Positions 23,348 through 37,144 of a stretch of DNA of 64,000 bases are shown piece by piece. A model generated the notes under the pieces. That model was given only the letters and a program-made list of their open reading frames with translations, was not told the origin of the DNA and made no database searches. Origin of the DNA: a bacterium (lineage in GTDB: Bacteria; Electryoneota; RPQS01); assembly GCA_036504735.1 (NCBI GenBank), contig DASXUQ010000009.1:1-64000 (forward strand), in the 5' to 3' direction. The first letter of the stretch is position 1. Each line of letters begins with the position of its first letter. A program made the position numbers and the translations under genes.

Positions 23348-23366
23348 CCGAGTCCTCCGGCAAAGG

Positions 23367-24146: not shown

Positions 24147-24256
24147 ACGCGAACATATCCTGAGATAGATGTGGGCGGCACAAGCACAAAAGGCGGGCAG
24201 GATCCGTCCCGCCCGCCTTCTGCTCGATAAACCTGTTCGATTCTTACGCCGTCCGG

Positions 24257-24667: not shown

Positions 24668-24693
24668 GACTTTCCCTTTCGAAATCGAATGAC

Positions 24694-25233
24694 TTATTTC
24701 CTATCGTTCCGGATATGATTTTTCTGGCAACCGGTTTGTTCGCCGCTCATTATGCCGGCATGTCCCACGCAGCCGCCGTTGTTGCGCATCATGGCAAACA
24801 GGGTTGTCTGCTGCGTGGCGTTCAGCACACGTTTTTCCTCGAGCAGATGATTAACTACCAGCCGCTGCATGCGTTGCTGCACCGTGCCGATCTCACCTTC
24901 CTTGGCCTCAATCGCCACCGGGTTAACCTGCGGCTCGGCCAGCAGGTCCATCAGTTGCCCCCGCAGAGAGTCGGCGGTGGTGCCCAGTGTTGCGGATGCC
25001 GTTTGGAAATCCCGCTGCAGTGGTTCCAGGGAGCGCCATTGTTCGGCGGTAGTTCCCAGCGCGCGGTGCAGAGGGCACCAGATGCGGCAACTGCTGTCCG
25101 GCATGCAGACGGTCTTTTGAGGTCTGGCCGCGCGCGCGGTCTGCGTGAGCGTCTTCATTCCCCACGCAGTGACGAACGCGACGTTCAGGCTGACCGAAAG
25201 GATGATGAGCAGAATGCGAGTTCTGGAGTGCAT
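24694..25233 (-). CDS. periplasmic heavy-metal sensor (Metal_resist/Spy-CpxP-like, LTxxQ motifs)
   Basis: Signal anchor. LNATQQ-type repeats. Typical partner of ECF/anti-sigma pairs. Confidence 0.55.
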   Translation of the reverse strand: MHSRTRILLIILSVSLNVAFVTAWGMKTLTQTARAARPQKTVCMPDSSCRIWCPLHRALGTTAEQWRSLEPLQRDFQTASATLGTTADSLRGQLMDLLAEPQVNPVAIEAKEGEIGTVQQRMQRLVVNHLLEEKRVLNATQQTTLFAMMRNNGGCVGHAGIMSGEQTGCQKNHIRNDRK

Positions 25234-25236
25234 GGC

Positions 25237-25740
25237 TTACCTCCCGCCATCGGTTGGAGCGGCGAGAGTCAAGTAGACTTCCGCAGGCGATCCGCCGGGG
25301 CTGTCGGACAGGTAGTCCGCATGAATGGAAGAGGCAGGATCGGGATCGGGCACGGTGGCCGCAACCATCGGAACACGCGTCACACCGGCAGAATTCCATC
25401 CCAGCCATGTTCCTACGGACAGGCCGACCATCAGCACGATTACCGCAGCGGCGCGCATGGTGGACGGTAGGGCCTCCCACCAGTCTATATGCAGCAGGCG
25501 ACGCGGCTTGGGGGAAGCCAGTTGGGTTTGACCGCGCGCCACAATCCGTGCCGCAAGCCCTGCCGGGACCTCGGGGATCACGCTTTCCTGCACTGTGGAG
25601 GCCAGCCGTTCGAGCCGCGCCATTTCCTCCCGGCACTTCTCGCAGGAGCGCAGGTGTTCTTCCACCGCGGATCGCTCTGTGGCGGACAACTCGCGGTCGG
25701 CAAATGCGCCAAGCTGATTTCGAATTCTATCGCATGTCAC
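25237..25740 (-). CDS. anti-sigma factor (zf-HC2, single TM)
   Basis: HLRSCEKCR zinc finger. TM AAAVIVLMVGLSVGTWLGW. GTG 25740 preceded by AGGAGGAG. Confidence 0.7.
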   Translation of the reverse strand: MTCDRIRNQLGAFADRELSATERSAVEEHLRSCEKCREEMARLERLASTVQESVIPEVPAGLAARIVARGQTQLASPKPRRLLHIDWWEALPSTMRAAAVIVLMVGLSVGTWLGWNSAGVTRVPMVAATVPDPDPASSIHADYLSDSPGGSPAEVYLTLAAPTDGGR

Positions 25741-25810
25741 GGCTTTTGAACTCCTCCTATCTATAAACGGACAACCTTGCAAAATCCCCCGCCGTCCCTC
25801 AACTACCGAG

Positions 25811-26356
25811 CTAATCCCAGTCCTTTAAAGTATTTCCCAGTGCCTCGCGGCCTCTTGCCAGCAGTCGCTCCACCGCTTTTTCTGTCGTGTCCATGGCTTC
25901 AGCAATGTCGCGGTAACTGCAATCCTCGTAATAGCGGAGGATGATGGCCAGCCGCTGATTAGGAGGCAAGAGGGTAATCCCGCGCCGCACCGCTGAAGCT
26001 TGCTCCTCGCGGACGACAATTCCATCGGGCAACGGCGAAGTATCCGCACATTCGGGCAGTTCATCGCAGACCACAGGCCGTTTCTTTTCCATATGATCCA
26101 GGCACAGACGGCAAATAATGCGGGAGAGATAGGTTCGGAAGGACGCGGTGGGGCGGTAGCGCGCGGCGGCGGCCAGCAATCTTAGAAAGGCATCCTGCAC
26201 CAGATCTTCGGCATCTTCCCGGTTGCCGACAAAGCGGTACGCAACGCTCCACGCGAACGCCTGATGCCGCAGGACAATCTGTTCGAAAGCCTGCACATCT
26301 CCCTGGCCCGCGGCCAGCATCAGCTCGTCGTCGCGTGGAGTTTGAATCATGGCCAT
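25811..26356 (-). CDS. ECF RNA polymerase sigma factor
   Basis: Region 2 (DAEDLVQDAFL) and region 4 (SYRDIAEAMDTTEKAVERLLARGR). ATG 26356 or 26350. Confidence 0.85.
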   Translation of the reverse strand: MAMIQTPRDDELMLAAGQGDVQAFEQIVLRHQAFAWSVAYRFVGNREDAEDLVQDAFLRLLAAAARYRPTASFRTYLSRIICRLCLDHMEKKRPVVCDELPECADTSPLPDGIVVREEQASAVRRGITLLPPNQRLAIILRYYEDCSYRDIAEAMDTTEKAVERLLARGREALGNTLKDWD

Positions 26357-26387: not shown

Positions 26388-26415
26388 TGAAAGAACCAGC
26401 CCACGCTGGTTCTTT
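26388..26415. terminator. bidirectional hairpin terminator between YeeE-rhodanese and ECF genes
   Basis: gaaccagc ccac gctggttc flanked by A/T runs. Confidence 0.55.
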
Positions 26416-26453: not shown

Positions 26454-27647
26454 TCAGCAGCCACCCTTGATCTTCTTCTCGGTCTTGACCGCCTTTGGCG
26501 CGATATTCTTGCCGGCATCAATCATGCGGGCAATCTCGGCGCGGGCGGTTTGACGGAAGGTCTTGACGTCGTTGTCCCAGCGGCTGCCGGTGGGCACAAA
26601 GGCTGTCGAGTCCAGAATGACATGCTTGAACGTCGGAAGTCCACCTTCAAGCGCCGCCACATTTTCATAACCGAGGCTCTGCAACAACAGGCAGCCCGCC
26701 TTCTCTTGTGCCTCGTCATCAGCCACGATCACCTTTTTAACATGCCGCTGCGAGAACAGCGCGGTATTATCTTTGCTGAAGAAATCACGCAGGGAAATGT
26801 TGCGGGATCCGGGAAGAGCCAGCTTGGCAAACTGCTCGGGGCTGCGGATGTCCACCATCTGCAGACGCGTCTCCTTGTCCACCAGAAGATATGCCAGTTC
26901 ATCCACGGGCATGACCTTGACCGGATGCGCGGCGACATACCCTGCACTGGAAACCGTGCTGATCATGTGCGCCTTGCGCTCGGGCAGCACCAAAAACACC
27001 AGCCCCAGGGCAAGCACGCCGATGGCCGCAAGGCGGTGCTTGGACAGATTGAAGTCCCGCGACAATGATGCGGAATTGACCTTGCGCTCAATAATGGTGG
27101 TGATGGCAAAGGCGCTCACCGCCACGGCAATCAGGATGAAGGCAAACAGTCCACCGGAAATTCCCAGAGAGTCATAGACCCGCACCGGACCTAAGGCGGT
27201 GGAGTTGAAGAAAGTTTTGAACAGCGGAAACATCTCGCCAAACACAAAGACCCCCAGCAGTCCGCCGCCCACAAAGAACATCGCATCCACTTTGCCAATG
27301 GCCGCCGCGCACACACTGGTGCCGGGGCAATAGCCGCCCAGCACAAAACCTAATCCCATAATGGCCCCACCCACAACCGCCGGCCAGAGCCAGGTGGGAT
27401 TGATGTAGATGGCTTCGGTATCGAGCAGGCCCGCGTAGCCGAGCAGCAGGATGCCGCTCATCGCCGTTACGGCGGCAGTGAAAAAGACACGCAGCACGGT
27501 GAAATCATAGCCATAGAAGACTCCGGCCAGGCGGCGCGAGGACGAAAAGCCCGCCTGTTCCAGCACAAAGCCAAAGGCTATTCCCAGGATCAGCGCCACA
27601 ATTAAATTGAGCTGATCGGAGATGAGGTCAGGAACGAAGGGTCCCAT
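26454..27647 (-). CDS. YeeE/YedE-family sulfur-compound transporter fused to C-terminal rhodanese domain
   Basis: GGYCPGTSVCAAAIG motif. Downstream rhodanese-like block (VDIRSPEQF...). Confidence 0.7.
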   Translation of the reverse strand: MGPFVPDLISDQLNLIVALILGIAFGFVLEQAGFSSSRRLAGVFYGYDFTVLRVFFTAAVTAMSGILLLGYAGLLDTEAIYINPTWLWPAVVGGAIMGLGFVLGGYCPGTSVCAAAIGKVDAMFFVGGGLLGVFVFGEMFPLFKTFFNSTALGPVRVYDSLGISGGLFAFILIAVAVSAFAITTIIERKVNSASLSRDFNLSKHRLAAIGVLALGLVFLVLPERKAHMISTVSSAGYVAAHPVKVMPVDELAYLLVDKETRLQMVDIRSPEQFAKLALPGSRNISLRDFFSKDNTALFSQRHVKKVIVADDEAQEKAGCLLLQSLGYENVAALEGGLPTFKHVILDSTAFVPTGSRWDNDVKTFRQTARAEIARMIDAGKNIAPKAVKTEKKIKGGC

Positions 27648-27668
27648 AATATTCTTTTGCTTTCTGCC

Positions 27669-28181
27669 TTAGATCCAGAGTTTGCGGAAGAAGTAGGCGA
27701 CGGCGAAACCCGTGCCGAAGATCGCAAGCATGGCGATAAACCCTGCGGTGGACAGTACCGCCATGCCGCTTAAGGCCGCGCCGCTGGTACAGCCCCGCGC
27801 AAACTGGGCTCCCGCGCCAAACAGGGCTCCGCCGATCACGGCGAAAATCCAGCGCAGTTTCGGCTGCACGCGCGGTCCGGATTCCGTCACCACTTTCAGG
27901 CGATCCGATACGAGACCCGAGATAAACGCACCGATCAGCACGCCGATCACTTCGAACACCAGCCACGATTTCATCGGGCTCTCCTTGCCCTCGCCGAAGT
28001 AGGACCCGAAGAAGGTGGAGTGTTCGGCATGAGCCGGAGCAATCGCATGGACCGTCGTCAGAACCACGTCCTTGACCGCGCCGCTTGCTCCGAGGCCGCG
28101 GCCCGTGATAAAGATGGTCGCCAGCAGCACGAGGCCCAGAAAGAAACCGGCGAGGTAGGGATTCATGTATTTGGTGTTCAT
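27669..28181 (-). CDS. YeeE/YedE-family membrane protein
   Basis: ARGCTSGAALSG motif. ATG 28181 in ATGA overlap with the cytochrome b stop. The upstream 130 aa of the track ORF overlaps cytochrome b and is rejected. Confidence 0.7.
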   Translation of the reverse strand: MNTKYMNPYLAGFFLGLVLLATIFITGRGLGASGAVKDVVLTTVHAIAPAHAEHSTFFGSYFGEGKESPMKSWLVFEVIGVLIGAFISGLVSDRLKVVTESGPRVQPKLRWIFAVIGGALFGAGAQFARGCTSGAALSGMAVLSTAGFIAMLAIFGTGFAVAYFFRKLWI

Positions 28182-28780
28182 TTCAGATCCTCGTAGCCGG
28201 TGATCATTGCTTTCAGATTGGAGGTCACGCTCGATCCGGTGGTGATGAGATACACGTGTGCGATAAAGAAGCAGACCAGCGCAAACGCGCCGAGCGTATG
28301 GACCAGCGCAATGGCTTTCAGGCCGCCGACATTCAGGCTGATCACGTCGTGCCGCTGCGGATAGCGGTAGAACATGTACAACAGCCCGGATACCGCCATT
28401 ACCGGAATCACCAGCGCCTTCAATCCCGCGTAGACGAGCTTCTGCAACGGGTTCAGCTTGCTCAGTACCTGCTTTTTGGTAGGATGCGGAGCGCCGCGGA
28501 AGATGCCAAAGATGTAATAGTTGACCTGAGCGCGCAGATGCTCCCGTGTGGGCAGGTACTGCCGCCATTCGCCCGTGGTGAAATGCCAGAAGACGGCGAA
28601 GACAATCAACACGAGAAAGCCAATGGCCGAGCTGTTGTGCAGAGCGACCGCCTGCCGGAAGCCGAAGAAGTGAATGGCGCCGTGGATCTCGAAGCCGGTT
28701 ACGCCAAGCATAAGAATCACGGCCGCCTGCGTCCAGTGCCAGAAGCGCTCAAAGGCGCGATAGACATAGTCGTGTTTCAT
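28178..28780 (-). CDS. b-type cytochrome membrane subunit (PhsC/FdnI/HyaC-like)
   Basis: 200 aa, 4-5 TM with conserved His. Adjacent to a multiheme c. Confidence 0.65.
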   Translation of the reverse strand: MKHDYVYRAFERFWHWTQAAVILMLGVTGFEIHGAIHFFGFRQAVALHNSSAIGFLVLIVFAVFWHFTTGEWRQYLPTREHLRAQVNYYIFGIFRGAPHPTKKQVLSKLNPLQKLVYAGLKALVIPVMAVSGLLYMFYRYPQRHDVISLNVGGLKAIALVHTLGAFALVCFFIAHVYLITTGSSVTSNLKAMITGYEDLK

Positions 28781-28781
28781 A

Positions 28782-30344
28782 TCAGCGGCCTCCCTTCCGC
28801 TTGCGGCTCACGACGACCCGGGCGCCACCGTGCGCTATCACTCCTGCAAGGGTCATCAGAATCATCGCCGCGCCGAATTTTTCCAGCCCCGCGCTGTAAT
28901 TGCGGCCCGGCATGTAGAAGTCGTTCAGGCCGGCCAAGCGGCTATCGGTGCGCGTATGGCATTCATTGCACTGCACCACGCTGGTTTTCGGCGAGACCAT
29001 GTGATTGACAGGCCAGTACATTTCGGTTTCGGCAAAACCGTATTTGCCGCTGTAAGGAAGGTCGACCCGCTTCATGCCTTCTTCAGCGGCACGGTTCCAG
29101 TTGAATTCCTTCCAGTAGCCGCCATCACCGGCGACTGTTGAAAACGTCTTGGGCTGAATCAGATAATGGTTCTGCGTATCGTAAATCTGTTTGGTGCGCA
29201 TGATCTTCACCGGGATGATCTTCGCCTCGGGATCGTTGTATGCGCCATAGAGCGGGTTGATCTTCAGCGGCTGGGAAGGATCGAAGGTATCACCGATCAG
29301 GTAATGGGACGCCGTGCCGTTGAACCACACATAGTCCGGCTTCAGATTCTTGCCCCAGCGGAAGGAGCCCTTGATCGACATGTACACATCGTCGCCCGTC
29401 GAGTCCTTCTCTTCGTACGGCTGACCGTCCTTGAGTTTTCCCGCCGTGGACCAGTCCCAATCGGTCTTGGTGGGATTGACTTTGGCATAGGTGGGGATGT
29501 GGCAAGTTTGACAGGCGACCTTGATGGTGTGCTTGTTCAATACATCATCGGAATGCGGCAGGGCGCTGTGGCAGCTTTCGCACTCGGCGCGGTTACGGTT
29601 CATCGAAGAGACCGAGAAGGCCTTGCCGAGCATCTGATGCTTGCTGGCCGTGTGGCAATCCACGCACTGCATGTCTTCGCCGTCGGAGGCCATGTGCACG
29701 TCGACATCGCGGGACGGGTCAAACAGAGCTTTCTCCAGATCGCCGTGCTTGACATTGTTCCCGCCGCCGCCGAAAAAGTGACAGGTTCCGCAGTTCGTGC
29801 GCTGCGGTTTTCCCACGTGCTGCGCCACAGTGGCCAAGTCCACCGACGGATCGGGATTTCCCGCGCCGGCTTTGATGTAGCTGTTGCTGTTGTCATGGCA
29901 GGCGAGGCAATCGACGTTGTAGGCATTCTGAAAATCGAAGGAAGGGCTGTCATAGCCGTAGCCGATGTGGCAGCGGTTGCAGCTCGGTTCGTTGCCGGAA
30001 ATGCCGATGCAAAAATTATTCAGGATGTTTCGCTTGCCGACAGTACGAATGCCCTTGCCTTCGACATACTCTGTGCGTTCCCAATTCCAGTGGGACGACT
30101 GCATCACTTCCTTGTGCCGTTCGGTGTGACAGGAGATACAGGCTTCGGTAACCTCCTGCGGTTTGCCGAAGCGCTTTTGCAGCACCGCGAACCGGGTGTG
30201 ATCTACCGAAGGCTTTTCCTTCTTCTGATAGCGGGCTTTCAGTGCGGCCAAGGGTGTTTGATCCTCACTCTTTTTCGGCAGCACGCTCAGCATGAGGGCA
30301 AGCACGGCACCGAAAACAAGCAGGACCAGAAAAATACGTTTCAT
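28782..30344 (-). CDS. octaheme c-type cytochrome (tetrathionate reductase Otr-like family)
   Basis: Eight CxxCH (CISCH, CNRCH, CLACH, CGTCH, CVDCH, CESCH, CQTCH, CNECH). Signal peptide and C-terminal hydrophobic anchor. Confidence 0.6.
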   Translation of the reverse strand: MKRIFLVLLVFGAVLALMLSVLPKKSEDQTPLAALKARYQKKEKPSVDHTRFAVLQKRFGKPQEVTEACISCHTERHKEVMQSSHWNWERTEYVEGKGIRTVGKRNILNNFCIGISGNEPSCNRCHIGYGYDSPSFDFQNAYNVDCLACHDNSNSYIKAGAGNPDPSVDLATVAQHVGKPQRTNCGTCHFFGGGGNNVKHGDLEKALFDPSRDVDVHMASDGEDMQCVDCHTASKHQMLGKAFSVSSMNRNRAECESCHSALPHSDDVLNKHTIKVACQTCHIPTYAKVNPTKTDWDWSTAGKLKDGQPYEEKDSTGDDVYMSIKGSFRWGKNLKPDYVWFNGTASHYLIGDTFDPSQPLKINPLYGAYNDPEAKIIPVKIMRTKQIYDTQNHYLIQPKTFSTVAGDGGYWKEFNWNRAAEEGMKRVDLPYSGKYGFAETEMYWPVNHMVSPKTSVVQCNECHTRTDSRLAGLNDFYMPGRNYSAGLEKFGAAMILMTLAGVIAHGGARVVVSRKRKGGR

Positions 30345-30434
30345 ACTCCATCTTCCTTCCTTGCGAATTTTCGTGCAAGGATAGGCTGTGAAAAGCCTGC
30401 CGTTCATCATCGACACGGCAGGCAGCTATCGTTG

Positions 30435-30824
30435 TTATGTGAGGCTGGCCAGCGCCTTTTTCATCAGACTTCGCGCCTGCGCCCCATGCGGCGTCAAGAC
30501 GGGATCGCCAAGGGTTTCTACCACGGTGCCAGGATCGAGCGCCCAGACAGAGACGGTGTCATCCTCTTCCTGCCGCAGGCATACGGAGCAAGGCAGAAAC
30601 ACGCCGACTTCCGGGCGCACCGCCAGCGCTCGGTGGGCGATCTGCGGATTGCAGGCGCCGAGTATCCGGTAGGGCGCGGTGTCCACACCCAGCTTCTCCT
30701 TGAGCACCTTGTCCGCTTCGATCCGGGTCAGGATTCCGAAGCCCGATTCTTTCAGCGCGGCGGTGATGCGCGTTTCCACATCATCGATAGTGCCATGCGC
30801 GCGAGTGGATAGCACGAAGTTCAT
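30435..30824 (-). CDS. DUF302 domain protein
   Basis: GFGILTRIEADKVLKEKLGVDTAPYRILGACNP. Confidence 0.8.
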   Translation of the reverse strand: MNFVLSTRAHGTIDDVETRITAALKESGFGILTRIEADKVLKEKLGVDTAPYRILGACNPQIAHRALAVRPEVGVFLPCSVCLRQEEDDTVSVWALDPGTVVETLGDPVLTPHGAQARSLMKKALASLT

Positions 30825-30827
30825 GGT

Positions 30828-31217
30828 TCAGGAGTCCTTCACGACCGGCAGCGGCGCCAGTTTGTCGAGCTTCTGCCGCAGGGTCTCGATGGGAATCAAG
30901 CCCACCACCTGATCCACGATCTTGCCGTCCTTGATAAACATTAGGGTTGGGATGCTGCGGATGCGAAAGGCGGAGGCGGTCTGCATGTTCTGTGACACGT
31001 TCAGCTTGAAGATGTTCACACGTCCCACATATTCCGGGCCGAGGTCCCGCAGTAAACCGCCCATGACCTGGCAAGGCATGCAGGTCGGCGACCAGAAGTC
31101 CAGCAGTACCGGGAGTTCGGATTTAAGAATATCCTGATCGAAGGTGGCGTCGCTGGTTTCCATCGGCTTGCCCGGCTTAACCTCGCCGCCATTGAAGAGG
31201 GATTTGAAAATACTCAT
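30828..31217 (-). CDS. thioredoxin (variant WSPTCMPC active site)
   Basis: Trx fold. ATG 31217. Confidence 0.8.
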   Translation of the reverse strand: MSIFKSLFNGGEVKPGKPMETSDATFDQDILKSELPVLLDFWSPTCMPCQVMGGLLRDLGPEYVGRVNIFKLNVSQNMQTASAFRIRSIPTLMFIKDGKIVDQVVGLIPIETLRQKLDKLAPLPVVKDS

Positions 31218-31279
31218 CGTCTGTGCTCCTTGCACGTTCCGTTATTATCCTGCATCTTCATAAACTAAGAATCCATTTG

Positions 31280-31945
31280 TCAGCCGTGCACCACGGGCAT
31301 TCCCGCCGCTTTCCATTCGGCCACGCCATCGCCGAGGCGGATCGCTTCGAAGCCCTTGCTGCGCAGTACCCGCACAGCTTCTCCCGCCAGCACGCAGTAC
31401 GGTCCGCGGCAATAGGCCACAATCTGCTGTCCCTGCGGGAGACGGTCCAGATGGCTTTTCAACTTGTCCAGCGGAATGGAGAGCGCGTGAGGAATATGCT
31501 CGGCGGCATACTCATCTTCCGGCCTGACATCCAGCATGATAATCTTTCCGCCCTTGGCCAGCTTCAGGAGCTTGTTGCGGTCGATGATCTCGACCTCTTT
31601 AGGATCATCGGTGATGTCGGAGAGCACGCGCTCGACTTCGGCCAGGCGGGACTGGGCGACCTTCTTCATATTGCTGACCAGATCATAGACCTGTCCGTCG
31701 GCCAACCGATAGAACACGTAGATTCCTTCGCGCCGGGTCTCCACCAATCCCGCACCTCTTAGAACCTGCAGGTGCCGCGAGGTGTTGGCAATGGTCATTC
31801 CGGTGTTGGCTACCAGCGTCTCGACACTCTTCTCGCATTGGTGCAAAAGTTCTAAGAGTTCCAAGCGTTTAGGGCTGGACAGTGCGTGTCCAATTCTGGC
31901 GAACTGCTCGTTGAGCTTGTCTTTGATATCCCGGACGGTCGGCAT
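31280..31945 (-). CDS. ArsR-family HTH regulator fused to rhodanese domain
   Basis: ATG 31945 with AGAAGGAG SD. Rhodanese active-site Cys in YCRGPYC. Confidence 0.75.
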   Translation of the reverse strand: MPTVRDIKDKLNEQFARIGHALSSPKRLELLELLHQCEKSVETLVANTGMTIANTSRHLQVLRGAGLVETRREGIYVFYRLADGQVYDLVSNMKKVAQSRLAEVERVLSDITDDPKEVEIIDRNKLLKLAKGGKIIMLDVRPEDEYAAEHIPHALSIPLDKLKSHLDRLPQGQQIVAYCRGPYCVLAGEAVRVLRSKGFEAIRLGDGVAEWKAAGMPVVHG

Positions 31946-31961
31946 AATTTCTCCTTCTATC

Positions 31962-31981
31962 ATTCAATCGAACGCTTGAAT
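31962..31981. promoter_or_regulatory. inverted repeat ATTCAA-N8-TTGAAT 17 nt upstream of ArsR-rhodanese start
   Basis: attcaatcgaacgcttgaat. Confidence 0.45.
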
Positions 31982-32059
31982 ATACGAAAAAGATCCACCA
32001 GAGTCAAGTCCCCCCTGTCGGAACATTACTATTTCCATGGTAGCTGTGAACTTAAGTCA

Positions 32060-32095
32060 ATAAAAACGGCTGACCTTCCGGGTCAGCCGTTTCAT
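32060..32095 (-). terminator. strong rho-independent terminator after ArsF-like gene
   Basis: aacggctgacc ttcc gggtcagccgtt followed by TTTTTATT on the minus strand. Confidence 0.7.
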
Positions 32096-32115
32096 GTTCA
32101 GTTTATGGCGCGCGG

Positions 32116-32565
32116 TTACTTTGCGTTCAGGTAAGCGCGGACTTCATTCTGCACATACGTGAGATAATCCGGTTTTGCTCCCACCAGCTCCCAGATCTTC
32201 TCGCAATTCTTCCAGTGTGCCTGCTTGCCATCCTCCAGACGAACGATGATCAGCGACTTTGTTTCCAGCTTGAAATCGTTCCAGAAGTGCTCATACTCCT
32301 TTTGGCCCGTGTCGTAGCTGTGCCATTCAACGGTGCCCTGTTGCAGCTCTTTGGCAAAGCCCGTCTCCACGGCCTCTTTGGCAAAGGCTTCCATGTTGAT
32401 ACAGGTCTCACAACGGGGCGTAAAGTAAAGGTAGTAAACCACCACTTTGGGATTGGACGCGGCTTGAGCGTGGACGCTGTCGGCAACGGCAGGGACGGCC
32501 TCTTCGGCCCGCGCGGGCAGCGCCGCCAGGATCACGTACAGTATTATCTGAAACGCGAACTTCAT
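32116..32565 (-). CDS. secreted thioredoxin-like CxxC protein, ArsF-like family
   Basis: Signal peptide. VVYYLYFTPRCETCINMEAF resembles the thioredoxin-like 'nitrophenyl nitroreductase subunit ArsF' family. Family assignment from memory. Confidence 0.4.
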   Translation of the reverse strand: MKFAFQIILYVILAALPARAEEAVPAVADSVHAQAASNPKVVVYYLYFTPRCETCINMEAFAKEAVETGFAKELQQGTVEWHSYDTGQKEYEHFWNDFKLETKSLIIVRLEDGKQAHWKNCEKIWELVGAKPDYLTYVQNEVRAYLNAK

Positions 32566-32583
32566 GCTTCGGTGCTCTTTGGG

Positions 32584-33240
32584 TTAGTGAACAGGATTGG
32601 ATGCGGTGGACGTGCCTTTATCGGGAAGCATCGGCGCGAGGGTAAGAGCCGCTGCGGCCAGCAGGCCGAGGTCTTCCCATATTCCCATACTGAAGGCCGC
32701 GGTGGATCCGACCAGGACCCACAACAGCGGAATCACCAGCAGAAGTTTGGGCGGCTTGGGATCGACCCAGAGCAAAAGCCCCAGAGAAAAAATAGTGGTT
32801 GGGCATGGCAGCCCGAAGGTCGGCGCGGAGGGATAGACATGGCCAAGGAAATATCCTAAGATCGGATAGACCACCAGACTGTACGTCATCAGCATCGAGC
32901 CCCTGATTCCCGGGCAACCCTTCCGGAGGCTGAACGTCAACTGGCCGCGGAACACACCGCTATAGAGAATCAAGAGTCCCTGCACGACAAACAGCGCTCC
33001 GAAAAGATACGCGGCGCGGTTGATACCGCTGAAGTAGATCCAATGATAGACCACACCCATCCAGATCCAGAGCAGCCCCAGCAGCGCACTGATGATTCTG
33101 CCCCGTTGCCCGCCGGGCCGGATGGCCAGAAAGATCGCTGCCAATGCGGCGGCGTTCAGCAGGATCTGTGCCGGCCAGACCGCCTGATTGTAGCCGGCAA
33201 ACACCGCCAGAAACTGTTCCACTGTAAACGGTAAGCTCAT
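32584..33240 (-). CDS. conserved integral membrane protein (DUF-type, MSLPFTVEQFLAVF...)
   Basis: 218 aa, about 6 TM. Confidence 0.55.
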   Translation of the reverse strand: MSLPFTVEQFLAVFAGYNQAVWPAQILLNAAALAAIFLAIRPGGQRGRIISALLGLLWIWMGVVYHWIYFSGINRAAYLFGALFVVQGLLILYSGVFRGQLTFSLRKGCPGIRGSMLMTYSLVVYPILGYFLGHVYPSAPTFGLPCPTTIFSLGLLLWVDPKPPKLLLVIPLLWVLVGSTAAFSMGIWEDLGLLAAAALTLAPMLPDKGTSTASNPVH

Positions 33241-33273
33241 CTTACACTCCGCTCAAAGATTTTCGGCTTGAAA

Positions 33274-33975
33274 TCAGAAGAGTTTCCAGACCATATAGAG
33301 GCCGCCCAGAATCACCAGGGCACCGCAAATGCGTTTGATCCAGCGCGTCACACCCGAGCGCTCGGTCCAACTCAAATAGTCGCCAATGCGGCTGGCCAGC
33401 ACGCCCGCGACCACGATGACCGCGCAGTGCCCGAGGGCAAAGGCTCCCAGCAAGGTCACTGCACCTCCGACATTGGTGGTCGCCGTTTTGAAGACCACGC
33501 CCAGCACCGGCGCCATAAAGGCAAAGGTGCACGGACCCAGCCCAATGCCGAAGATCAGTCCCAGCGTCAGCGCCGACAGAAGTCCCGAGTAGCTCTGGCC
33601 GGAAAAATGCAGACCGTTCCAGGACAGCGGCAGGATGTCCATCAGGTACAGCCCAATAGCCAGAAAGACCAGCGCCACCAGCACGTTCCCCACCATGCCG
33701 ATGTCCCCCAGCAGGCGTCCGAGCATCGCGGTGGCCAGTCCGATGGCGGCAATCGTCACCAGAATGCCCAGAGCAAATGTGACGGAAAGCCAGAACACGC
33801 GCCGTGCGTTGGCCGACTCCTGACTGCTGATAAAACCGATCAGCAAGGGGATGCTCGCCAGATGGCAGGGACTGAGCAGAATGCTCGCGATGCCCCAGAA
33901 CACGGCAGCGACAATTCCCAGCCAAAGGCTCGCTGCGAGTCCCTCATTCAGTGTCGTAAACAGGCTTTCGATCAT
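33274..33975 (-). CDS. ccdA: cytochrome c biogenesis / thiol-disulfide transporter CcdA (DsbD family)
   Basis: SPCHLASIPLL and GPCTFAFMAPV Cys-in-TM motifs. ATGA overlap with the upstream gene. Confidence 0.8.
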   Translation of the reverse strand: MIESLFTTLNEGLAASLWLGIVAAVFWGIASILLSPCHLASIPLLIGFISSQESANARRVFWLSVTFALGILVTIAAIGLATAMLGRLLGDIGMVGNVLVALVFLAIGLYLMDILPLSWNGLHFSGQSYSGLLSALTLGLIFGIGLGPCTFAFMAPVLGVVFKTATTNVGGAVTLLGAFALGHCAVIVVAGVLASRIGDYLSWTERSGVTRWIKRICGALVILGGLYMVWKLF

Positions 33976-34367
33976 GATAGCGGCGTCAACCCCTGCGCTT
34001 TAAGAAATTTGTCGATTTCCTCTTCGGCAAAGAAGCCTTCGTGGCGCATCAGTTCCTTGCCGGACGAATCGAGAAACACCTGCGTCGGAATCAGCTTAAT
34101 GCCGAAGGCTTGGGACTGTGCGCGGTCCTTCATGACATCGTGGAAGATCACTTTGACCTGTCCCGCATAGCGCGTCTCGATGGCCTTCATCACCGGCTGC
34201 ATCTTTTTGCAGGGGATACAGGTTGTCGAGCCCAGTTCCACAAAGGTGATCCTGGCCGCTGACGTGCTCGCCGTTTTGCTTACCGCGGCTTTGTCGGCGC
34301 CGCCACATGAGATCAGCAGCACGGCAATTCCCACAACAGCCGAAAATAAAAATGTCCGGCGTGCCAT
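33972..34367 (-). CDS. TlpA/ResA-like periplasmic thioredoxin lipoprotein
   Basis: Lipobox LLISCGG. TCIPCKKM active site. Confidence 0.75.
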   Translation of the reverse strand: MARRTFLFSAVVGIAVLLISCGGADKAAVSKTASTSAARITFVELGSTTCIPCKKMQPVMKAIETRYAGQVKVIFHDVMKDRAQSQAFGIKLIPTQVFLDSSGKELMRHEGFFAEEEIDKFLKAQGLTPLS

Positions 34368-34384
34368 TGGCAGTTCTCCGCAGG

Positions 34385-34618
34385 TTAGACCAGCAGTTTC
34401 TTGATTTCGTCCATCGACAACACGCGGCCTACCGCCTTGACGTCGCCGTCGATCACCAGCCCCGGTGTCTGCCAGACTTTGAACTTCATGATCTCGCTGA
34501 TTTCCGAGACCTTTTCCAGAGTGTAGTCGAGGCCCAGATCATTGGCGGCCAGTTCCGCGTTTTCCTGAAGCTTTTTGCAGCGGGCACAACCGGTGCCCAG
34601 AATCTGAATCTTTCGCAT
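34385..34618 (-). CDS. thioredoxin family 'redox-active disulfide protein 2'
   Basis: MRKIQILGTGCARCKK... Small Trx-like protein, common in ars loci. GTG 34627 is an alternative start. Confidence 0.8.
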   Translation of the reverse strand: MRKIQILGTGCARCKKLQENAELAANDLGLDYTLEKVSEISEIMKFKVWQTPGLVIDGDVKAVGRVLSMDEIKKLLV

Positions 34619-34631
34619 GGTCAGCACTCGC

Positions 34632-35651
34632 CTATATCAACAGATTGAAAAGATAGCCCACCATCAGAATTCCGATGCCGACCACGCCGATGAAGGTGCC
34701 GATCAGGCGCGGCTTGAGCACCTTGCGCAGAATCACCATCTCCGGCAGTGAGAGCGCAATCACGGCCATCATGAACGCCAGCACCGTTCCCAGTGCCGCG
34801 CCCTTTTCCAGCAGCGCCTGCACCACGGGGACAATTCCAGCCGCGTTGGAATACATGGGAATACCGATAATCACCGCCACGGGAACGCTCCACCATGCGT
34901 CCTTGCCCATGATCGACGCCAGAAAATTCTCCGGCACAAAGCCGTGAATCCACGCCCCCACACCAATGCCGATCACCACATACAGCCAGACCTTGCCGAC
35001 AATTTCCTTCACAGCAGTCAGGCCACACTGAACGCGCTCGGGCCAGGACAGGCGCTCTTCACTCTGGCTGCCGTCGGTCTGCATCTCATAGACCCAGGGC
35101 TCCACGTGTTTTTCCACGTGCAGGCGGCCAATCACCCAACCGGAGACCATGGCAATCAGCAAGCCGGTGCCCATATAGAGGGCGGCAATCTTCCAGCCGA
35201 AGAGTCCCAACAACAGCACTACGGCAATTTCGTTGACCATCGGCGCGGAGACCAAAAAGGAAAACGTCACGCCCAGCGGCACGCCCGCGGTCACAAAACC
35301 GATAAACAACGGCACCGCAGAGCACGAGCAAAACGGCGTCACAATTCCCAGCAGCGCCGCCAGTACGTTGCCCGCAGACTCGCGTTTGCCCGCCAGCATC
35401 TGCCGCGTGCGCTCCGGAGTGAAAAACGAGCGCACGATGCCCACACCAAACACCACCAGCGTCAGCAGCATCAGCACCTTGGGAGTCTCGAACAGGAAGA
35501 ACTCCACGGCAGTGGAAAGGTGCGTGCCGGGCGTCAGGATTGTGACTTGCGCCGTCAGCCAGCGCGCCCACGGTGCAAGCTGGCCGTAGAGCAAAACCCA
35601 CAGCGCCAATGCGGCGGGAAGCCACACCGCCGTGCGGGTGAAAAGGTTCAC
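34632..35651 (-). CDS. arsP: ArsP-type organoarsenical efflux permease
   Basis: TPFCSCSAVP motif characteristic of ArsP. About 8 TM. Start uncertain: GTG 35651 or nearby. Confidence 0.65.
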   Translation of the reverse strand: MNLFTRTAVWLPAALALWVLLYGQLAPWARWLTAQVTILTPGTHLSTAVEFFLFETPKVLMLLTLVVFGVGIVRSFFTPERTRQMLAGKRESAGNVLAALLGIVTPFCSCSAVPLFIGFVTAGVPLGVTFSFLVSAPMVNEIAVVLLLGLFGWKIAALYMGTGLLIAMVSGWVIGRLHVEKHVEPWVYEMQTDGSQSEERLSWPERVQCGLTAVKEIVGKVWLYVVIGIGVGAWIHGFVPENFLASIMGKDAWWSVPVAVIIGIPMYSNAAGIVPVVQALLEKGAALGTVLAFMMAVIALSLPEMVILRKVLKPRLIGTFIGVVGIGILMVGYLFNLLI

Positions 35652-35703
35652 ATGATGGTGTGTACGGGACTCGGGAATGCTCACCGCGATTATCCTGTAA
35701 AGG

Positions 35704-36090
35704 TTAGGCGCGCTCGCGCGCGGCGATTCGGCTGGTAGAGGCCTCACGGGTGACGCCGCAACTCTTCTGTTCCCGCCACTCCGCCAGCTTAAGGTTCAAC
35801 ACACGCATCTTCTCCGCGTCGAGCAGTTGCTCCACGCTGTCCAGAATCGACCTTTGGGCCGGACTCAATTCCCCGGCAATCCGGTAGTAGATCCACACCG
35901 CGGCCCTCCGATCCTGCACCAGACCGGCATTCAGCAGGTAGCGCAGGTGCCGCGACGCTTTCGACTGGCCTATTTGCAGAACAATCTCCAGATCGCACAC
36001 ACACAGCTCGCCATTCTGCCGCATCAGTGCCAGCATATAAAGCCGCGTTTCATCCGCCAAGGCGCGGAACAGAGCCGCTGGATTGCTCAA
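35704..36090 (-). CDS. arsR: ArsR/SmtB family metalloregulator (paralog)
   Basis: ELCVCDLE site. About 75% identical to the 3684..4070 product. Confidence 0.85.
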   Translation of the reverse strand: MSNPAALFRALADETRLYMLALMRQNGELCVCDLEIVLQIGQSKASRHLRYLLNAGLVQDRRAAVWIYYRIAGELSPAQRSILDSVEQLLDAEKMRVLNLKLAEWREQKSCGVTREASTSRIAARERA

Positions 36091-36226: not shown

Positions 36227-37144
36227 CTAAGACTCTGTAACCTCGAGGGTCACGTGCACAAGTTCCGAGAACGCACCCAGCCTCTGGCGAAAGGCGGCAG
36301 CACTCCCTTTCTGTGCCCGCTGAACCTCAATTGCCGCCGCGTAGATGCCGGGACCGATACTCCACACGTGCAGGTCGGTCACCTTTCCCCCGGCAGACTC
36401 CAGCGCCTCGCGAATGCGATGCAGCAGAGCTTGAGGTGCCTGACGGTCCAAAAGCACCCGCGCCGAAACCAGGGAGAGCCCGATGGACCAGCGAGCAACC
36501 AGCACTGCGCCGACAATTCCCATCAGCGGATCGAGCCAATTCCACCCCAGATATTTGGCTCCGAGCAGCGCGAAAATTGCCAGCACGGACGTCAGGGCAT
36601 CGGCCACAACGTGCAGATACGCCGCCCGTAGATTGTGGTCATGCTCGTGCGCATGGTGATCCTGCTCATCCGGATGATGGTGGTGTCCACCCTGTAGAAT
36701 CCACACGCTGACCCCGTTCACAATCAGTCCGATCACTGCCACAAAGATCGCCTGGTCAATGGTGATAGTCACCGGATGCAGCATGCGCATCACACTCTCA
36801 TAGGCCATGATCAGGGCAAACAGCCCGAGCATTACCGCGCTGGTGTAGGCCGCCAGAGAATTCATTTTGCCGCTGCCGAAACTGTAGCGGCTGTCAAGCG
36901 CATAACGCCGGGCCAGGACATAGGCCGCATAGCTCAGGCCCAGCGCCGCTGTGTGCGAGGCCATGTGCAAGCCGTCCGCCAAAAGAGCCATGGAGCCGTA
37001 AAACAGTCCGGCGGCAATTTCCACCACCATCATCAGTGCCGTGACGATCACGACCATCAGTGTGCGGCGTTCGCCGGCCTGAACAGCCTGCTGCCCGAAA
37101 TCGTGCCGGTGCTCGCCGGCTGTCTGGGAGATTGAGTCTATCAT
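36227..37144 (-). CDS. cation diffusion facilitator (CzcD/ZitB-like) transporter
   Basis: His-rich loop GGHHHHPDEQDHHAHEHDH. CDF TM signature. Confidence 0.85.
   Translation of the reverse strand: MIDSISQTAGEHRHDFGQQAVQAGERRTLMVVIVTALMMVVEIAAGLFYGSMALLADGLHMASHTAALGLSYAAYVLARRYALDSRYSFGSGKMNSLAAYTSAVMLGLFALIMAYESVMRMLHPVTITIDQAIFVAVIGLIVNGVSVWILQGGHHHHPDEQDHHAHEHDHNLRAAYLHVVADALTSVLAIFALLGAKYLGWNWLDPLMGIVGAVLVARWSIGLSLVSARVLLDRQAPQALLHRIREALESAGGKVTDLHVWSIGPGIYAAAIEVQRAQKGSAAAFRQRLGAFSELVHVTLEVTES

What the first reader, a model, noticed from the sequence alone, without database searches (positions are those of the whole stretch)
26454..36090. About 10-kb minus-strand array combining organoarsenical efflux, a periplasmic thiol-disulfide relay and sulfur-compound respiration/transport
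Fifteen consecutive same-strand genes, in order of transcription: arsR, arsP (TPFCSCS), Trx-2, TlpA-like, CcdA, DUF membrane protein, ArsF-like CxxC, then a terminator, then ArsR-rhodanese, Trx, DUF302, then a hairpin, then octaheme cytochrome c (Otr-like), cytochrome b, YeeE, YeeE-rhodanese. The combination links arsenical detoxification with thiosulfate/tetrathionate/persulfide handling, for example thioarsenate or methylarsenical-sulfur chemistry. I do not know it as a described system.
Basis: inference. Interest (0 to 1): 0.75.

Follow-up and report, generated by a model that had tools for sequence, protein, structure and literature searches.

The report
Arsenic operon beside tetrathionate respiration cassette
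The ten-kilobase gene row is real, but it is two self-contained units lying side by side, an arsenic-resistance operon with a periplasmic thiol relay and a widely conserved tetrathionate-type respiration and sulfur-import cassette, rather than one new arsenic-sulfur machine.

Summary
The gene calls are confirmed: 14 genes (not 15) lie on the minus strand at 26454-36090, with the predicted domains, a canonical terminator after arsF and two further hairpins.

The array is a mosaic of two units.
- Block A (arsR to arsF) is an ArsR-controlled unit. It holds an ArsP-type permease, an ArsE-family thioredoxin, CcdA, a TlpA-like lipoprotein, DUF6064 and a secreted ArsF-family thioredoxin.
- In relatives, block A sits with Acr3, ArsC or ArsA/D. 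In L085/L086 arsF runs directly into the ECF-sigma/NapH-like genes that in the window lie beyond the array.
- Block S holds ArsR-rhodanese, Trx, DUF302, Otr, cytochrome b and a split PmpAB-type YeeE. It has its own promoter-like site.
- Block S travels as a unit in several unrelated contexts.
- Its four-gene core is collinear in 68 of 68 genome loci with room, across Ignavibacteriota, Bacteroidota, Acidobacteriota and KSB1. It usually sits behind a MerR-type regulator.

A and S are adjacent in only 2 of 9 close S blocks, and lie within 10 kb in 5 of about 55 others. The co-location is recurrent but optional. No result supports thioarsenate chemistry.

One undescribed feature appeared. The YeeE-rhodanese protein has a non-catalytic rhodanese domain, predicted to be periplasmic, that ends in a conserved GGC tail like that of SoxY.

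The parts
36227..37144 (-). DmeF-type CDF metal efflux gene. It is an upstream neighbour, probably a separate transcript. A CDF recurs next to these blocks in relatives.
   Evidence: NF033827, 381 bits against a cutoff of 250. A 64%-identical CDF lies downstream of block S in L098. CDFs are also present in L083, L005 and L014.
35704..36090 (-). arsR, an As(III)-type ArsR/SmtB repressor and the first gene of block A.
   Evidence: HTH_5 at 1.7e-13; NF033788, 86 bits against a cutoff of 55. The ELCVCDL motif is seen in the translation. A TTGCAT-17-TATATT site was read by eye upstream.
34632..35651 (-). ArsP-type permease (PF03773) with a vicinal Cys pair, TPFCSCS.
   Evidence: ArsP_1, 261 bits. 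It is below the cutoffs of SaoE and SO_0444. It is 65-84% identical in L005, L014, L015, L025, L031, L083, L085 and L098.
34385..34627 (-). Small cytoplasmic CxxC thioredoxin of the MTH895/ArsE family.
   Evidence: TIGR00412, 100 bits against a cutoff of 62; Thioredoxin_3. No hydrophobic segment.
33972..34367 (-). TlpA/ResA-like thioredoxin lipoprotein with a CIPC site; periplasmic.
   Evidence: Thioredoxin and Thioredoxin_2 hits. N-terminal hydrophobic segment with an LLISC lipobox.
33274..33975 (-). CcdA (DsbD_TM), the transmembrane electron conduit of the thiol relay.
   Evidence: PF02683 at 8.7e-12. Both membrane Cys motifs (SPCH, GPCT) are visible in the translation. The gene overlaps the TlpA-like gene by 4 nt.
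32584..33240 (-). DUF6064 membrane protein. It is an extra gene found only in the window's version of block A.
   Evidence: PF19540, 185 bits. It is absent from all other A-type loci.
32116..32565 (-). Secreted ArsF-family thioredoxin-fold protein (PRCETC plus Cys121), the last gene of block A.
   Evidence: NF040494, 96 bits against a cutoff of 60. Signal peptide and invariant Cys residues. AlphaFold pLDDT 83; the top PDB folds are all thioredoxins.
32059..32090 (-). Intrinsic terminator that ends block A.
   Evidence: ACGGCUGACC-CGGAA-GGUCAGCCGU followed by UUUUUAUU; -21.8 kcal/mol, z = -6.3.
31979..32007 (-). Sigma-70-like promoter match in front of block S.
   Evidence: TTGACT-17-TATATT, 10 of 12 positions. 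It is a consensus match only.
31280..31963 (-). ArsR-HTH fused to a rhodanese with a CRGPYC loop. It is the likely sulfane-sulfur or thiosulfate sensor of block S.
   Evidence: HTH_5 plus Rhodanese. Cys185 and Cys190 are 100% and 99% conserved in 119 homologs. Its closest homologs share contigs with the closest Otr homologs.
30828..31217 (-). Cytoplasmic thioredoxin (CMPC site), part of block S.
   Evidence: Thioredoxin at 8e-23. It is conserved after ArsR-rhodanese in L098, L099, L101, L057 and the P0007 and P0154 contigs.
30435..30824 (-). DUF302 protein, part of block S.
   Evidence: PF03625 at 1e-19. It is 73% identical in L098 and L099.
30391..30423 (-). Hairpin with a short U-run between DUF302 and otr, possibly a partial terminator.
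   Evidence: -19.0 kcal/mol, z = -2.8.
28782..30344 (-). Octahaem cytochrome c of the Otr family, with an N-terminal signal or anchor and a C-terminal TM helix.
   Evidence: TIGR04315, 593 bits. PDB 1SP3 at E = 2.6e-132, with Lys56 and Cys64 aligned. Eight CXXCH motifs. Hydrophobic segments at 4-22 and 490-508.
28178..28780 (-). Cytochrome b (Ni_hydr_CYTB, PhsC-like), the presumed quinol dehydrogenase for Otr.
   Evidence: PF01292 at 6.8e-27. It is collinear with otr in 68 of 68 loci.
27669..28172 (-). PmpA-like half YeeE. It matches the C-terminal half of TsuA and has the Cys293-equivalent in GCTSG.
   Evidence: Sulf_transp profile positions 177-308 of 310. Aligned to 8K1R/6LEO residues 235-325.
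26454..27647 (-). PmpB-like half YeeE, followed by two extra TM helices, a non-catalytic rhodanese-homology domain, a Lys-rich linker and a C-terminal GGC.
   Evidence: Sulf_transp profile positions 10-192 plus Rhodanese. No catalytic Cys in the family. A GGC end in about 62 of 69 close homologs and 69 of 94 distant ones. Charge pattern gives N-out and a periplasmic tail.
26390..26415 (-). Terminator-like hairpin that ends block S.
   Evidence: -19.4 kcal/mol, z = -4.5.
22985..26350 (-). Block E: ECF sigma, zf-HC2 anti-sigma, Metal_resist, Cys-rich secreted protein, NapH-like Fer4_5 protein and a 120-aa HMA-like protein. In relatives it is linked to block A, not to block S.
   Evidence: Pfam and NCBIfam. 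It follows arsF directly in L085/L086, at 54-86% identity. It follows further downstream in L083. The NapH-like and 120-aa genes are nested inside block A in L087/L088.

Best explanation
The array is a mosaic of two autonomous gene units in a metal(loid)/redox-stress region of an uncultured FCB-group bacterium.

Block A (36090-32116):
- It is an ArsR-repressed operon that ends at its own terminator.
- An ArsP-type permease is inferred to export a trivalent (organo)arsenical or similar thiol-reactive species.
- A thiol relay is inferred to run from cytoplasmic ArsE-type Trx, or general Trx, through CcdA to a TlpA-like lipoprotein and then to secreted ArsF. It would keep periplasmic dithiols reduced, or process arsenical adducts, while arsenic is present.
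- Its natural partners are Acr3, ArsC, ArsA/D and the ECF-sigma/NapH-like genes.

Block S (32007-26454):
- It starts at its own promoter-like site and is probably one autoregulated transcript with an internal attenuating hairpin.
- ArsR-rhodanese is inferred to sense sulfane sulfur or thiosulfate on its CRGPYC cysteines, and Trx to reset it.
- Cytochrome b is inferred to pass quinol electrons to membrane-anchored periplasmic Otr, which reduces tetrathionate or a related polythionate.
- The PmpA/PmpB-like heterodimer is inferred to import the sulfur product.
- Its periplasmic rhodanese-like domain with a terminal GGC cysteine probably acts as a tethered carrier or receiver of the sulfur species.

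Shown here: gene content, transcript punctuation, and the independent conservation and modular shuffling of the blocks.
Inferred: substrates, electron path, topology and the carrier role.
For: Separate transcription units:
- A canonical terminator follows arsF and a promoter-like site precedes ArsR-rhodanese.

Block S is autonomous:
- otr, cytb, yeeE1 and yeeE2-rhd are collinear in 68 of 68 genome loci with room.
- The full seven-gene form recurs in L098, L099, L101 and the P0007 contig, which have different flanks; the P0154 contig carries its first genes before the contig ends.
- The regulator varies while the core stays fixed. A MerR-type regulator is present in 54 of 75 loci, ArsR-rhodanese in the window clade plus L034 and L057, and a sigma-54 activator follows the cassette in many Acidobacteriota loci.

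Block A is autonomous and arsenic-linked:
- In L005, L014 and L015 it is embedded among arsR, LMW-PTP arsC and Acr3.
- L083 has ArsD and ArsA. L092 has arsR and Acr3.
- L085/L086 are collinear with the window at 54-86% identity from arsR to the NapH-like gene. They lack DUF6064 and the 5.6-kb block S, and arsF is 18 nt from the sigma gene.

Otr identity:
- TIGR04315, 593 bits. PDB 1SP3 at E = 2.6e-132, with the Lys56 haem ligand and Cys64 aligned.
- Published tetrathionate induction of an acidobacterial otr (PMC8528874).

Split YeeE:
- The halves match the C- and N-terminal halves of TsuA, with the Cys293 and Cys91 equivalents. This is the arrangement described for PmpA/PmpB (PMC11582611).
Against: - A and S are neighbours more often than chance would give. 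This holds for the window, L098, and 5 of 55-58 other Otr loci within 10 kb. The binomial P is about 1e-5 at 0.5% per genome, but it is not corrected for shared ancestry.
- Block A in L083 and L092 carries a nested heptahaem cytochrome with a membrane or cytochrome b domain. Some dependence between the thiol relay and multihaem reductases is therefore not excluded.
- Promoter and terminator calls are consensus or energy based. FCB-group promoters may differ from the consensus used.
- No expression or biochemical data exist for this organism.
- Otr also reduces nitrite and hydroxylamine in vitro (cited in PMC11237559 and PMC7509429).
Confidence: 0.7

Rival explanations
1. This is the first reader's model: one integrated arsenic-sulfur system. 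Otr and YeeE would handle thioarsenates or methylarsenical-sulfur species, and ArsP with the thiol relay would export or repair them, under joint control.
For: - All 14 genes are on one strand.
- The same A-then-S order occurs in L098.
- An ars module lies within 10 kb of otr in L005, L014, L015, L025 and L031.
- Both blocks begin with ArsR-family regulators.
Against: - A strong terminator and a promoter-like site lie between the blocks.
- S occurs without A in L099, L101, L100, L034, L057 and the P0007 and P0154 contigs, and in about 50 other loci.
- A occurs without S in L083, L085-L088 and L092.
- Where the two are near each other, the spacing, the intervening genes and even the strand differ.
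- No result bears on thioarsenates.
Confidence: 0.1
2. The CcdA/TlpA-like/ArsF relay serves multihaem cytochromes. It would be an arsenic-inducible copy of the apocytochrome CXXCH-reducing branch of cytochrome c maturation. It would protect haem attachment to Otr and other multihaem proteins, or the GGC carrier thiol, from As(III). That would explain the recurrent co-location.
For: - CcdA plus a TlpA/ResA-like Trx is the canonical System II reducing branch (established knowledge).
- Block A sits beside Otr/cytochrome b in the window and in L098.
- Block A encloses a heptahaem-cytochrome b protein in L083 and L092.
- The top structural match of the ArsF model is an arsenic-treated thioredoxin. 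This reflects the shared fold only.
Against: - L085-L088, L005, L014 and L015 have block A with no cytochrome gene inside it or next to it.
- No CcsBA genes were seen in any locus.
- Most Otr cassettes lack the relay nearby.
Confidence: 0.15
3. Block S is a nitrogen-oxide (nitrite or hydroxylamine) reductase or detoxification module rather than a sulfur one.
For: Shewanella Otr reduces nitrite and hydroxylamine in vitro (Atkinson 2007, cited in PMC11237559). MAG papers list both options (PMC7509429).
Against: - Otr is invariably linked to the YeeE/PmpAB sulfur-transporter halves, in 68 of 68 loci.
- The regulator is fused to a rhodanese.
- An acidobacterial otr rose 36-fold with tetrathionate (PMC8528874).
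- No nitrogen-cycle genes are in the cassette.
Confidence: 0.08

Closest known systems
Octahaem tetrathionate reductase Otr of Shewanella oneidensis (PDB 1SP3; Mowat et al. 2004), and the 'Otr + cytochrome b561' clusters noted in Ignavibacteriae and Acidobacteriota MAGs (PMC7509429, PMC8528874)
   Same: - TIGR04315 membership.
- Eight CXXCH motifs.
- Lys56 and Cys64 are conserved in the alignment, at E = 2.6e-132.
- An adjacent cytochrome b.
   Different: - Here Otr has a C-terminal TM helix.
- It is always followed by two half-YeeE genes, the second carrying a rhodanese-like domain and a GGC tail.
- The papers I could read do not mention these partners.
PmpA/PmpB half-size YeeE proteins and the TsuA(YeeE)-TsuB(YeeD) thiosulfate uptake system (PMC11582611, PMC11073785; PDB 6LEO, 8J4C)
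   Same: - Two half-size Sulf_transp proteins match the C- and N-terminal halves of TsuA.
- They carry the Cys293 and Cys91 equivalents.
   Different: - There is no TusA/YeeD-like partner.
- The Cys22 position is Ser.
- The PmpB-like half carries two more TM helices, a Cys-less rhodanese domain and a conserved C-terminal GGC.
- NCBIfam TsuA models score far below their cutoffs: 47 against 400.
ars operons with the ArsP methylarsenite/roxarsone(III) efflux permease (Chen et al. 2015; PMC6205960) and the ArsEFG genes of Shewanella putrefaciens (Chen, Zhang, Rosen 2019; recalled from memory, paper not held)
   Same: - An ArsR with ELCVCDL.
- A PF03773 permease with TPFCSCS.
- ArsE-family and ArsF-family proteins above the NCBIfam cutoffs.
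- Acr3, ArsC and ArsA/D next to the module in relatives.
   Different: - CcdA and a TlpA-like lipoprotein are inserted between the ArsE-like and ArsF-like genes.
- ArsF is secreted.
- DUF6064 is added.
- Block A is linked to ECF sigma, NapH-like and HMA-like genes.
- Nitroreductase activity is untested.
ArsR-type sulfane-sulfur sensors (BigR, SqrR, and sHdrR/SoxR of Hyphomicrobium, which work with SoxT YeeE-like transporters; PMC11582611, PMC12423496)
   Same: An ArsR/SmtB HTH regulator encoded together with YeeE-family transporters in a sulfur gene cluster.
   Different: - The regulator is fused to a rhodanese domain with an invariant CRGPYC.
- The HTH cysteine is only 57% conserved.
- The BigR model scores 50 bits against a cutoff of 155.
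SoxY sulfur-carrier protein (C-terminal GGCGG swinging arm)
   Same: A conserved Gly-Gly-Cys lies at the extreme C-terminus after a flexible basic linker, in a predicted periplasmic location. In lucinid symbionts, otr is reported next to a divergent soxY (PMC11237559).
   Different: The tail is attached to a rhodanese-like domain on a membrane transporter half, not to a SoxY fold. No SoxZ or other Sox genes are present.
CcdA-ResA/TlpA reducing branch of System II cytochrome c maturation
   Same: A DsbD_TM protein with two membrane Cys residues, plus a periplasmic CxxC Trx lipoprotein, with the two genes overlapping.
   Different: It is under ArsR control in an ars context, followed by a second secreted Trx-fold protein (ArsF). 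No ccsBA genes are nearby.

Membership tests
Otr (tetrathionate reductase family octahaem cytochrome c, TIGR04315) | Score above the curated family cutoff | tested here: met
   593 bits against a cutoff of 375.
Otr (tetrathionate reductase family octahaem cytochrome c, TIGR04315) | Eight CXXCH haem sites, and the distal Lys ligand of the active-site haem (Lys56 in 1SP3) with the nearby Cys64 | tested here: met
   Eight CXXCH motifs. GKRN...NNFC aligns with GKKN...NNFC of 1SP3. The positions are invariant in 15 homologs: K104 and C112.
Otr (tetrathionate reductase family octahaem cytochrome c, TIGR04315) | Tetrathionate reductase activity | not testable with these tools
   There is only indirect support. 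An acidobacterial otr rose 36-fold with tetrathionate (PMC8528874).
PmpAB-type split YeeE/YedE transporter | Two half-size Sulf_transp proteins that cover the N- and C-terminal halves of TsuA | tested here: met
   Profile positions 10-192 and 177-308 of 310. PDB alignment. Definition taken from PMC11582611.
PmpAB-type split YeeE/YedE transporter | Conserved Cys equivalents of TsuA Cys91 and Cys293 | tested here: met
   Cys107 is 100% conserved in GYCPGT. GCTSG aligns with the GGCNIG of Cys293.
TsuA/TsuB (YeeE/YeeD) thiosulfate uptake system | Full-length YeeE reaching the equivalog cutoff, with an adjacent TusA-like YeeD | tested here: not met
   TsuA models score 47.5 and 28.4 bits against cutoffs of 400 and 645. 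No TusA-like gene is present in the cassette.
ArsP (trivalent organoarsenical efflux permease) | PF03773 permease with a vicinal Cys pair in a TM segment, encoded in an ArsR-controlled ars context | tested here: met
   ArsP_1, 261 bits. TPFCSCS is in the translation. arsR lies upstream. Acr3, ArsC and ArsA/D lie beside the 65-84%-identical orthologs. The role of the Cys pair is recalled from Chen et al. 2015, which was not read here.
ArsP (trivalent organoarsenical efflux permease) | MAs(III)/Rox(III) efflux activity | not testable with these tools
   A review notes two arsP clades that may differ in function (PMC6205960).
ArsEFG (nitroaromatic arsenical detoxification) | ArsE-family and ArsF-family proteins above the NCBIfam cutoffs | tested here: met
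   TIGR00412, 100 bits against 62. NF040494, 96 bits against 60.
ArsEFG (nitroaromatic arsenical detoxification) | ArsG permease and nitro-group reduction | not tested
   The ArsEFG paper was not available, so I could not establish the ArsG family. The activity is not testable here.
BigR/SqrR-type persulfide-sensing ArsR repressors | Equivalog score, and the conserved Cys pair in the HTH core | tested here: not met
   The BigR model scores 49.7 bits against a cutoff of 155. The HTH Cys43 is only 57% conserved. The invariant Cys residues lie in the fused rhodanese instead.
Catalytic rhodanese (for the YeeE2 C-terminal domain) | Active-site Cys in the loop after the central beta-strand | tested here: not met
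   The position is G or A across 69 homologs. The best PDB matches are Cys-less rhodanese-homology domains.
SoxY carrier | SoxY fold with a C-terminal GGCGG | tested here: not met
   Only the terminal GGC(+0-2 residues) motif is shared. The domain in front of it is rhodanese-like.

The most novel reading that the evidence does not exclude
The co-location could be functional. The ArsR-controlled CcdA/TlpA/ArsF relay would then be a periplasmic thiol-protection or adduct-reduction service for multihaem quinol oxidoreductases. These would include Otr with its GGC-tailed carrier in the window and L098, and the nested heptahaem-cytochrome b protein in L083 and L092. The region would be an arsenic-hardened sulfur-respiration island.

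Within that island, Otr would act on a sulfur species bound covalently to the periplasmic C-terminal Cys of the PmpB-rhodanese protein. That would be SoxY-style carrier-mediated polythionate respiration, coupled to import through the PmpAB channel.
Probability: 0.15. Interest if true: 0.75.

Novelty: new variant of a known kind. Interest (0 to 1): 0.45.

Why it matters
The physiological role and partners of Otr have been unclear since its structure appeared in 2004.

- An invariant cassette, present in at least four phyla, joins Otr to a quinol-oxidising cytochrome b and to a split YeeE whose periplasmic tail ends in a carrier-like cysteine. This gives a concrete, testable model for how sediment and soil anaerobes respire and then take up sulfur-cycle intermediates.
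- The ars side shows that ArsP/ArsE/ArsF-type genes commonly come with a CcdA-TlpA periplasmic reducing pathway. This points to periplasmic thiol damage as a target of arsenic stress in anaerobes.
- For genome annotation, same-strand runs like this one should be split at terminators and checked by synteny before being named as one system.

Tried and rejected
- The metagenome scan anchored on ArsF returned only 9 loci, most under 4 kb. Block A statistics therefore rest on few contexts.
- The word-indexed search found only 22 ArsF relatives.
- The ArsEFG and ArsP primary papers and an efflux review were not held. Statements about ArsG and the ArsP Cys pair rest on memory.
- I looked for insertion signatures around block S. 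There are no tRNA genes, no Rfam hits and no flanking direct or inverted repeats, and GC content is flat. 'Insertion' therefore means only a difference from L085/L086, with no direction implied.
- I found no operator motif shared between the ArsR-rhodanese promoter region and the DUF302-otr gap, by eye.
- I did not model the YeeE2-rhodanese protein, because the allowed inputs would have given a single-sequence model. Topology rests on charge statistics and the published TsuA topology.
- High-GC acidobacterial loci (L025, L031) gave noisy ORF maps. Only their tblastn matches were used.
- I considered and rejected three assignments: the permease as SaoE or an SO_0444 Cu/Zn exporter (below cutoffs); ArsR-rhodanese as BigR or TsoR (below cutoffs); and the YeeE2 rhodanese domain as a catalytic sulfurtransferase (no Cys).

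Full report
**Source and observation**

The window is part of a 968-kb JGI metagenome contig (3300035523, Ga0376481_000006). A T9SS-tail protein nearby, and the nearest named homologs (KSB1, Ignavibacteriota, Bacteroidota), place it in the FCB group. The phylum is not resolved.

There are 14 genes, not 15. The same-strand run extends on both sides, from a DmeF-type CDF (36227-37144) to a 120-aa HMA-like protein (22985-23347). That gives 21 genes.

The 'hairpin' after DUF302 exists (-19.0 kcal/mol, z = -2.8). A third hairpin follows the last gene (-19.4 kcal/mol, z = -4.5). A TTGACT-17-TATATT match lies between the arsF terminator and ArsR-rhodanese.

**The sulfur block (S)**

I anchored a search of one genome per species on an alignment of Otr homologs. 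It returned 80 loci at 59-77% identity, from Ignavibacteriota, Bacteroidota, Acidobacteriota (Thermoanaerobaculia, Holophagales, Vicinamibacteria), KSB1 and Kryptoniota MAGs. I then ran tblastn with all 20 window proteins against these loci.

- otr, cytb, yeeE1 and yeeE2-rhodanese are collinear on one strand in 68 of 68 loci that have room.
- Clustering of the flanking ORFs showed a fifth conserved gene about 500 nt upstream of otr in 54 of 75 loci. It is a MerR-HTH regulator with a Cys-rich C-terminal half.
- The window, L034 and L057 have ArsR-rhodanese at that position instead. Many acidobacterial loci have a sigma-54 activator after the cassette.
- The core is therefore fixed and the regulator is swapped.

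In the window's own clade, the closest ArsR-rhodanese homologs share contigs with the closest Otr homologs. The full unit (ArsR-rhodanese, Trx, DUF302, Otr, cytb, YeeE1, YeeE2-rhodanese) recurs in four other places with unrelated flanks:

- L098;
- L099, which is flanked by CRISPR-Cas and methyltransferases;
- L101;
- the P0007 contig, flanked by LptFG and ZnuA.

The P0154 contig carries the first genes of the unit behind a Cus/Czc RND pump, but the contig ends within the gene at the otr position.

**What S encodes**

*Otr.*
- It reaches TIGR04315 at 593 bits and matches Shewanella Otr (1SP3) at E = 2.6e-132.
- The unusual Lys56 haem ligand and Cys64 are aligned and invariant in relatives.
- It has eight CXXCH motifs, an N-terminal signal or anchor and a C-terminal TM helix.
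- The cytochrome b belongs to the Ni_hydr_CYTB/PhsC-like family.
- Published work reports an 'Otr + cytochrome b561' cluster in an Ignavibacteriae MAG (PMC7509429). It also reports a 36-fold rise of an acidobacterial otr transcript after tetrathionate addition (PMC8528874).

*The two YeeE genes.* They are half-size. The first matches the C-terminal half of TsuA, with the Cys293 equivalent. The second matches the N-terminal half, with the Cys91 equivalent 100% conserved and the Cys22 position a Ser. This is the arrangement described for PmpA/PmpB, which were proposed to form a heterodimer (PMC11582611).

*The C-terminal extension of the second half.* This is new.
- Its rhodanese-homology domain has no catalytic Cys anywhere in the family. 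Its best PDB matches are Cys-less rhodanese domains.
- The protein ends in K[IV]xGGC in about 62 of 69 close homologs.
- An exhaustive search of 1.84 billion representative proteins found 255 relatives at E <= 1e-30. Of the 94 full-length proteins among the best 150 listed, 69 end in GGC plus 0-2 residues, and one ends in GGCGG as SoxY does.
- Loop charges across 69 homologs alternate cleanly. Mean K+R is 0.0, 2.0, 0.01, 1.3 and 4.25.
- Combined with the published nine-TM, C-terminus-in topology of TsuA, this predicts an N-terminus outside, six TM helices and a periplasmic rhodanese-GGC tail. That is the same compartment as Otr. This is an inference, not a measurement.
- An independent paper notes otr next to a divergent soxY in lucinid symbionts (PMC11237559).

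*The ArsR-rhodanese regulator.* It has an invariant CRGPYC in the rhodanese domain. Its HTH cysteine is poorly conserved. It does not reach the BigR or TsoR cutoffs.

**The arsenic block (A)**

*Gene products.*
- The first regulator carries the ELCVCDL arsenite-site motif.
- The permease is PF03773 with TPFCSCS.
- The small Trx and the last gene reach NCBIfam's ArsE and ArsF family cutoffs.
- The TlpA-like protein has a lipobox. ArsF has a signal peptide, an invariant PRCETC and a third invariant Cys.
- Its AlphaFold model (pLDDT 83) matches only thioredoxins.

*Contexts of close homologs.* These tie the module to classical ars genes.
- L005, L014 and L015: arsR, LMW-PTP arsC and Acr3.
- L083: ArsD and ArsA.
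- L085, L092 and L098: arsR and Acr3.

*Relation to the downstream genes.*
- L085/L086 are collinear with the window at 54-86% identity from arsR through ArsF. The collinearity then continues through ECF sigma, anti-sigma, Metal_resist, the Cys-rich protein and the NapH-like protein.
- These loci have no DUF6064 and no block S. In them the arsF stop lies 18 nt from the sigma start.
- In L087/L088 the NapH-like and 120-aa genes sit inside block A.
- No repeats, tRNA genes or compositional shift mark the junctions. The direction of the change cannot be stated.

**How often A and S meet**

- Among nine S blocks of the ArsR-rhodanese type, only the window and L098 have A next to them. In L098 an Aminotran_5 gene lies between the two blocks, and the CDF is on the other side.
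- Among 55-58 Otr loci with at least 5-8 kb of upstream sequence, an ArsP-Trx3-TlpA-CcdA module lies within 10 kb in five. It is on the same strand in L005, L014 and L015 and on the opposite strand in L025 and L031. Spacers differ, at 2-8 kb of unrelated genes.
- That exceeds a naive chance expectation (binomial P about 1e-5 at 0.5% per genome). The test ignores shared ancestry and the clustering of stress genes.
- In L083 and L092, block A encloses a different multihaem protein. It has 7 haems and 845-901 aa, and the two copies are 77% identical. The L092 copy carries a cytochrome b domain.
- A loose affinity between the ars thiol relay and multihaem quinol oxidoreductases is therefore real. 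It is unexplained.

**Verdict**

The interpretation as a single arsenic-sulfur system does not.

The best-supported reading is two autonomous transcription units in a metal(loid)/redox-stress region. The first is an ars operon variant with a periplasmic reducing pathway. The second is a broadly conserved Otr, cytochrome b and PmpAB-like cassette, most likely for tetrathionate or polythionate reduction and sulfur import. In this clade it is governed by an ArsR-rhodanese sensor.

Each unit is a new variant of a known kind. The undescribed part, within the literature I could search, is the invariant link of Otr to a split YeeE with a periplasmic, Cys-less rhodanese domain ending in GGC.

A functional coupling of A and S remains possible at low probability. 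Transcript mapping and a phylogeny-corrected synteny survey would settle it.

Noticed in passing
L003-L082, about 500 nt upstream of otr (for example L005 9494-9997 and L074 9519-10004): A MerR-HTH regulator of about 161 aa, with a C-terminal half holding about 8 conserved Cys residues, precedes otr in 54 of 75 genome loci. It is replaced by ArsR-rhodanese in the window clade. Its ligand or cluster is unknown.
   Followed up: partly
window 26454-26500 (C-terminus of the YeeE-rhodanese protein); P0263-P0412: The protein family ends in a basic linker plus GGC. This holds for 69 of 94 distant full-length representatives, and one of them ends in GGCGG. The rhodanese domain in front of the tail has no catalytic Cys.
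   Followed up: yes
L092 4127-6832; L083 5932-8469: A heptahaem cytochrome c of 845-901 aa is nested inside the ars/thiol-relay module, between the ArsE-like Trx and CMD-TlpA-CcdA-ArsF. In L092 it is fused to a cytochrome b domain, which I recall (untested) as the CbcL architecture. A porin gene follows in L092 (Alginate_exp) and lies further downstream in L083 (Porin_O_P).
   Followed up: partly
window 22985-26350: This stretch holds ECF sigma, zf-HC2 anti-sigma, Metal_resist, a Cys/Met-rich secreted protein, a NapH-like Fer4_5 membrane protein and a 120-aa weakly HMA-like protein. The set is conserved with the ars module in L083 and L085/L086. It is partly nested inside the module in L087/L088.
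   Followed up: partly
window 32584-33240: A DUF6064 membrane protein sits between ccdA and arsF only in the window. Every other locus with this module lacks it.
   Followed up: no
L098 6691-8199; P0007 contig; L005 1290-2810: An Aminotran_5 (cysteine-desulfurase-like) gene of about 500 aa lies directly upstream of ArsR-rhodanese in two relatives. A 506-aa ORF that I did not run against Pfam lies near the ars genes in L005. The window has no such gene here.
   Followed up: no
P0007 and P0154 contigs and L100; L014 7961-8212; L015 6828-7055: A small Cys-bearing membrane protein (YgaP-like_TM or DUF6132, 65-83 aa), often with a thioredoxin, recurs just upstream of otr or its regulator. The window's 90-nt gap between DUF302 and otr has no room for it.
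   Followed up: no
window 36227-37144; L098 14176-15144; L014 3210-4151; L083 13849-14787: A CDF metal exporter (DmeF-like in the window) recurs beside the ars and Otr blocks, on varying sides.
   Followed up: no
window 28782-28880 (Otr C-terminus): Otr carries a conserved C-terminal hydrophobic helix followed by basic residues (consensus LTLAGVxVHGGAR...RxRK). The alignment to the 443-residue Shewanella chain 1SP3 ends well before this helix, at query residue 466 of 520. It suggests a membrane-tethered enzyme.
   Followed up: no
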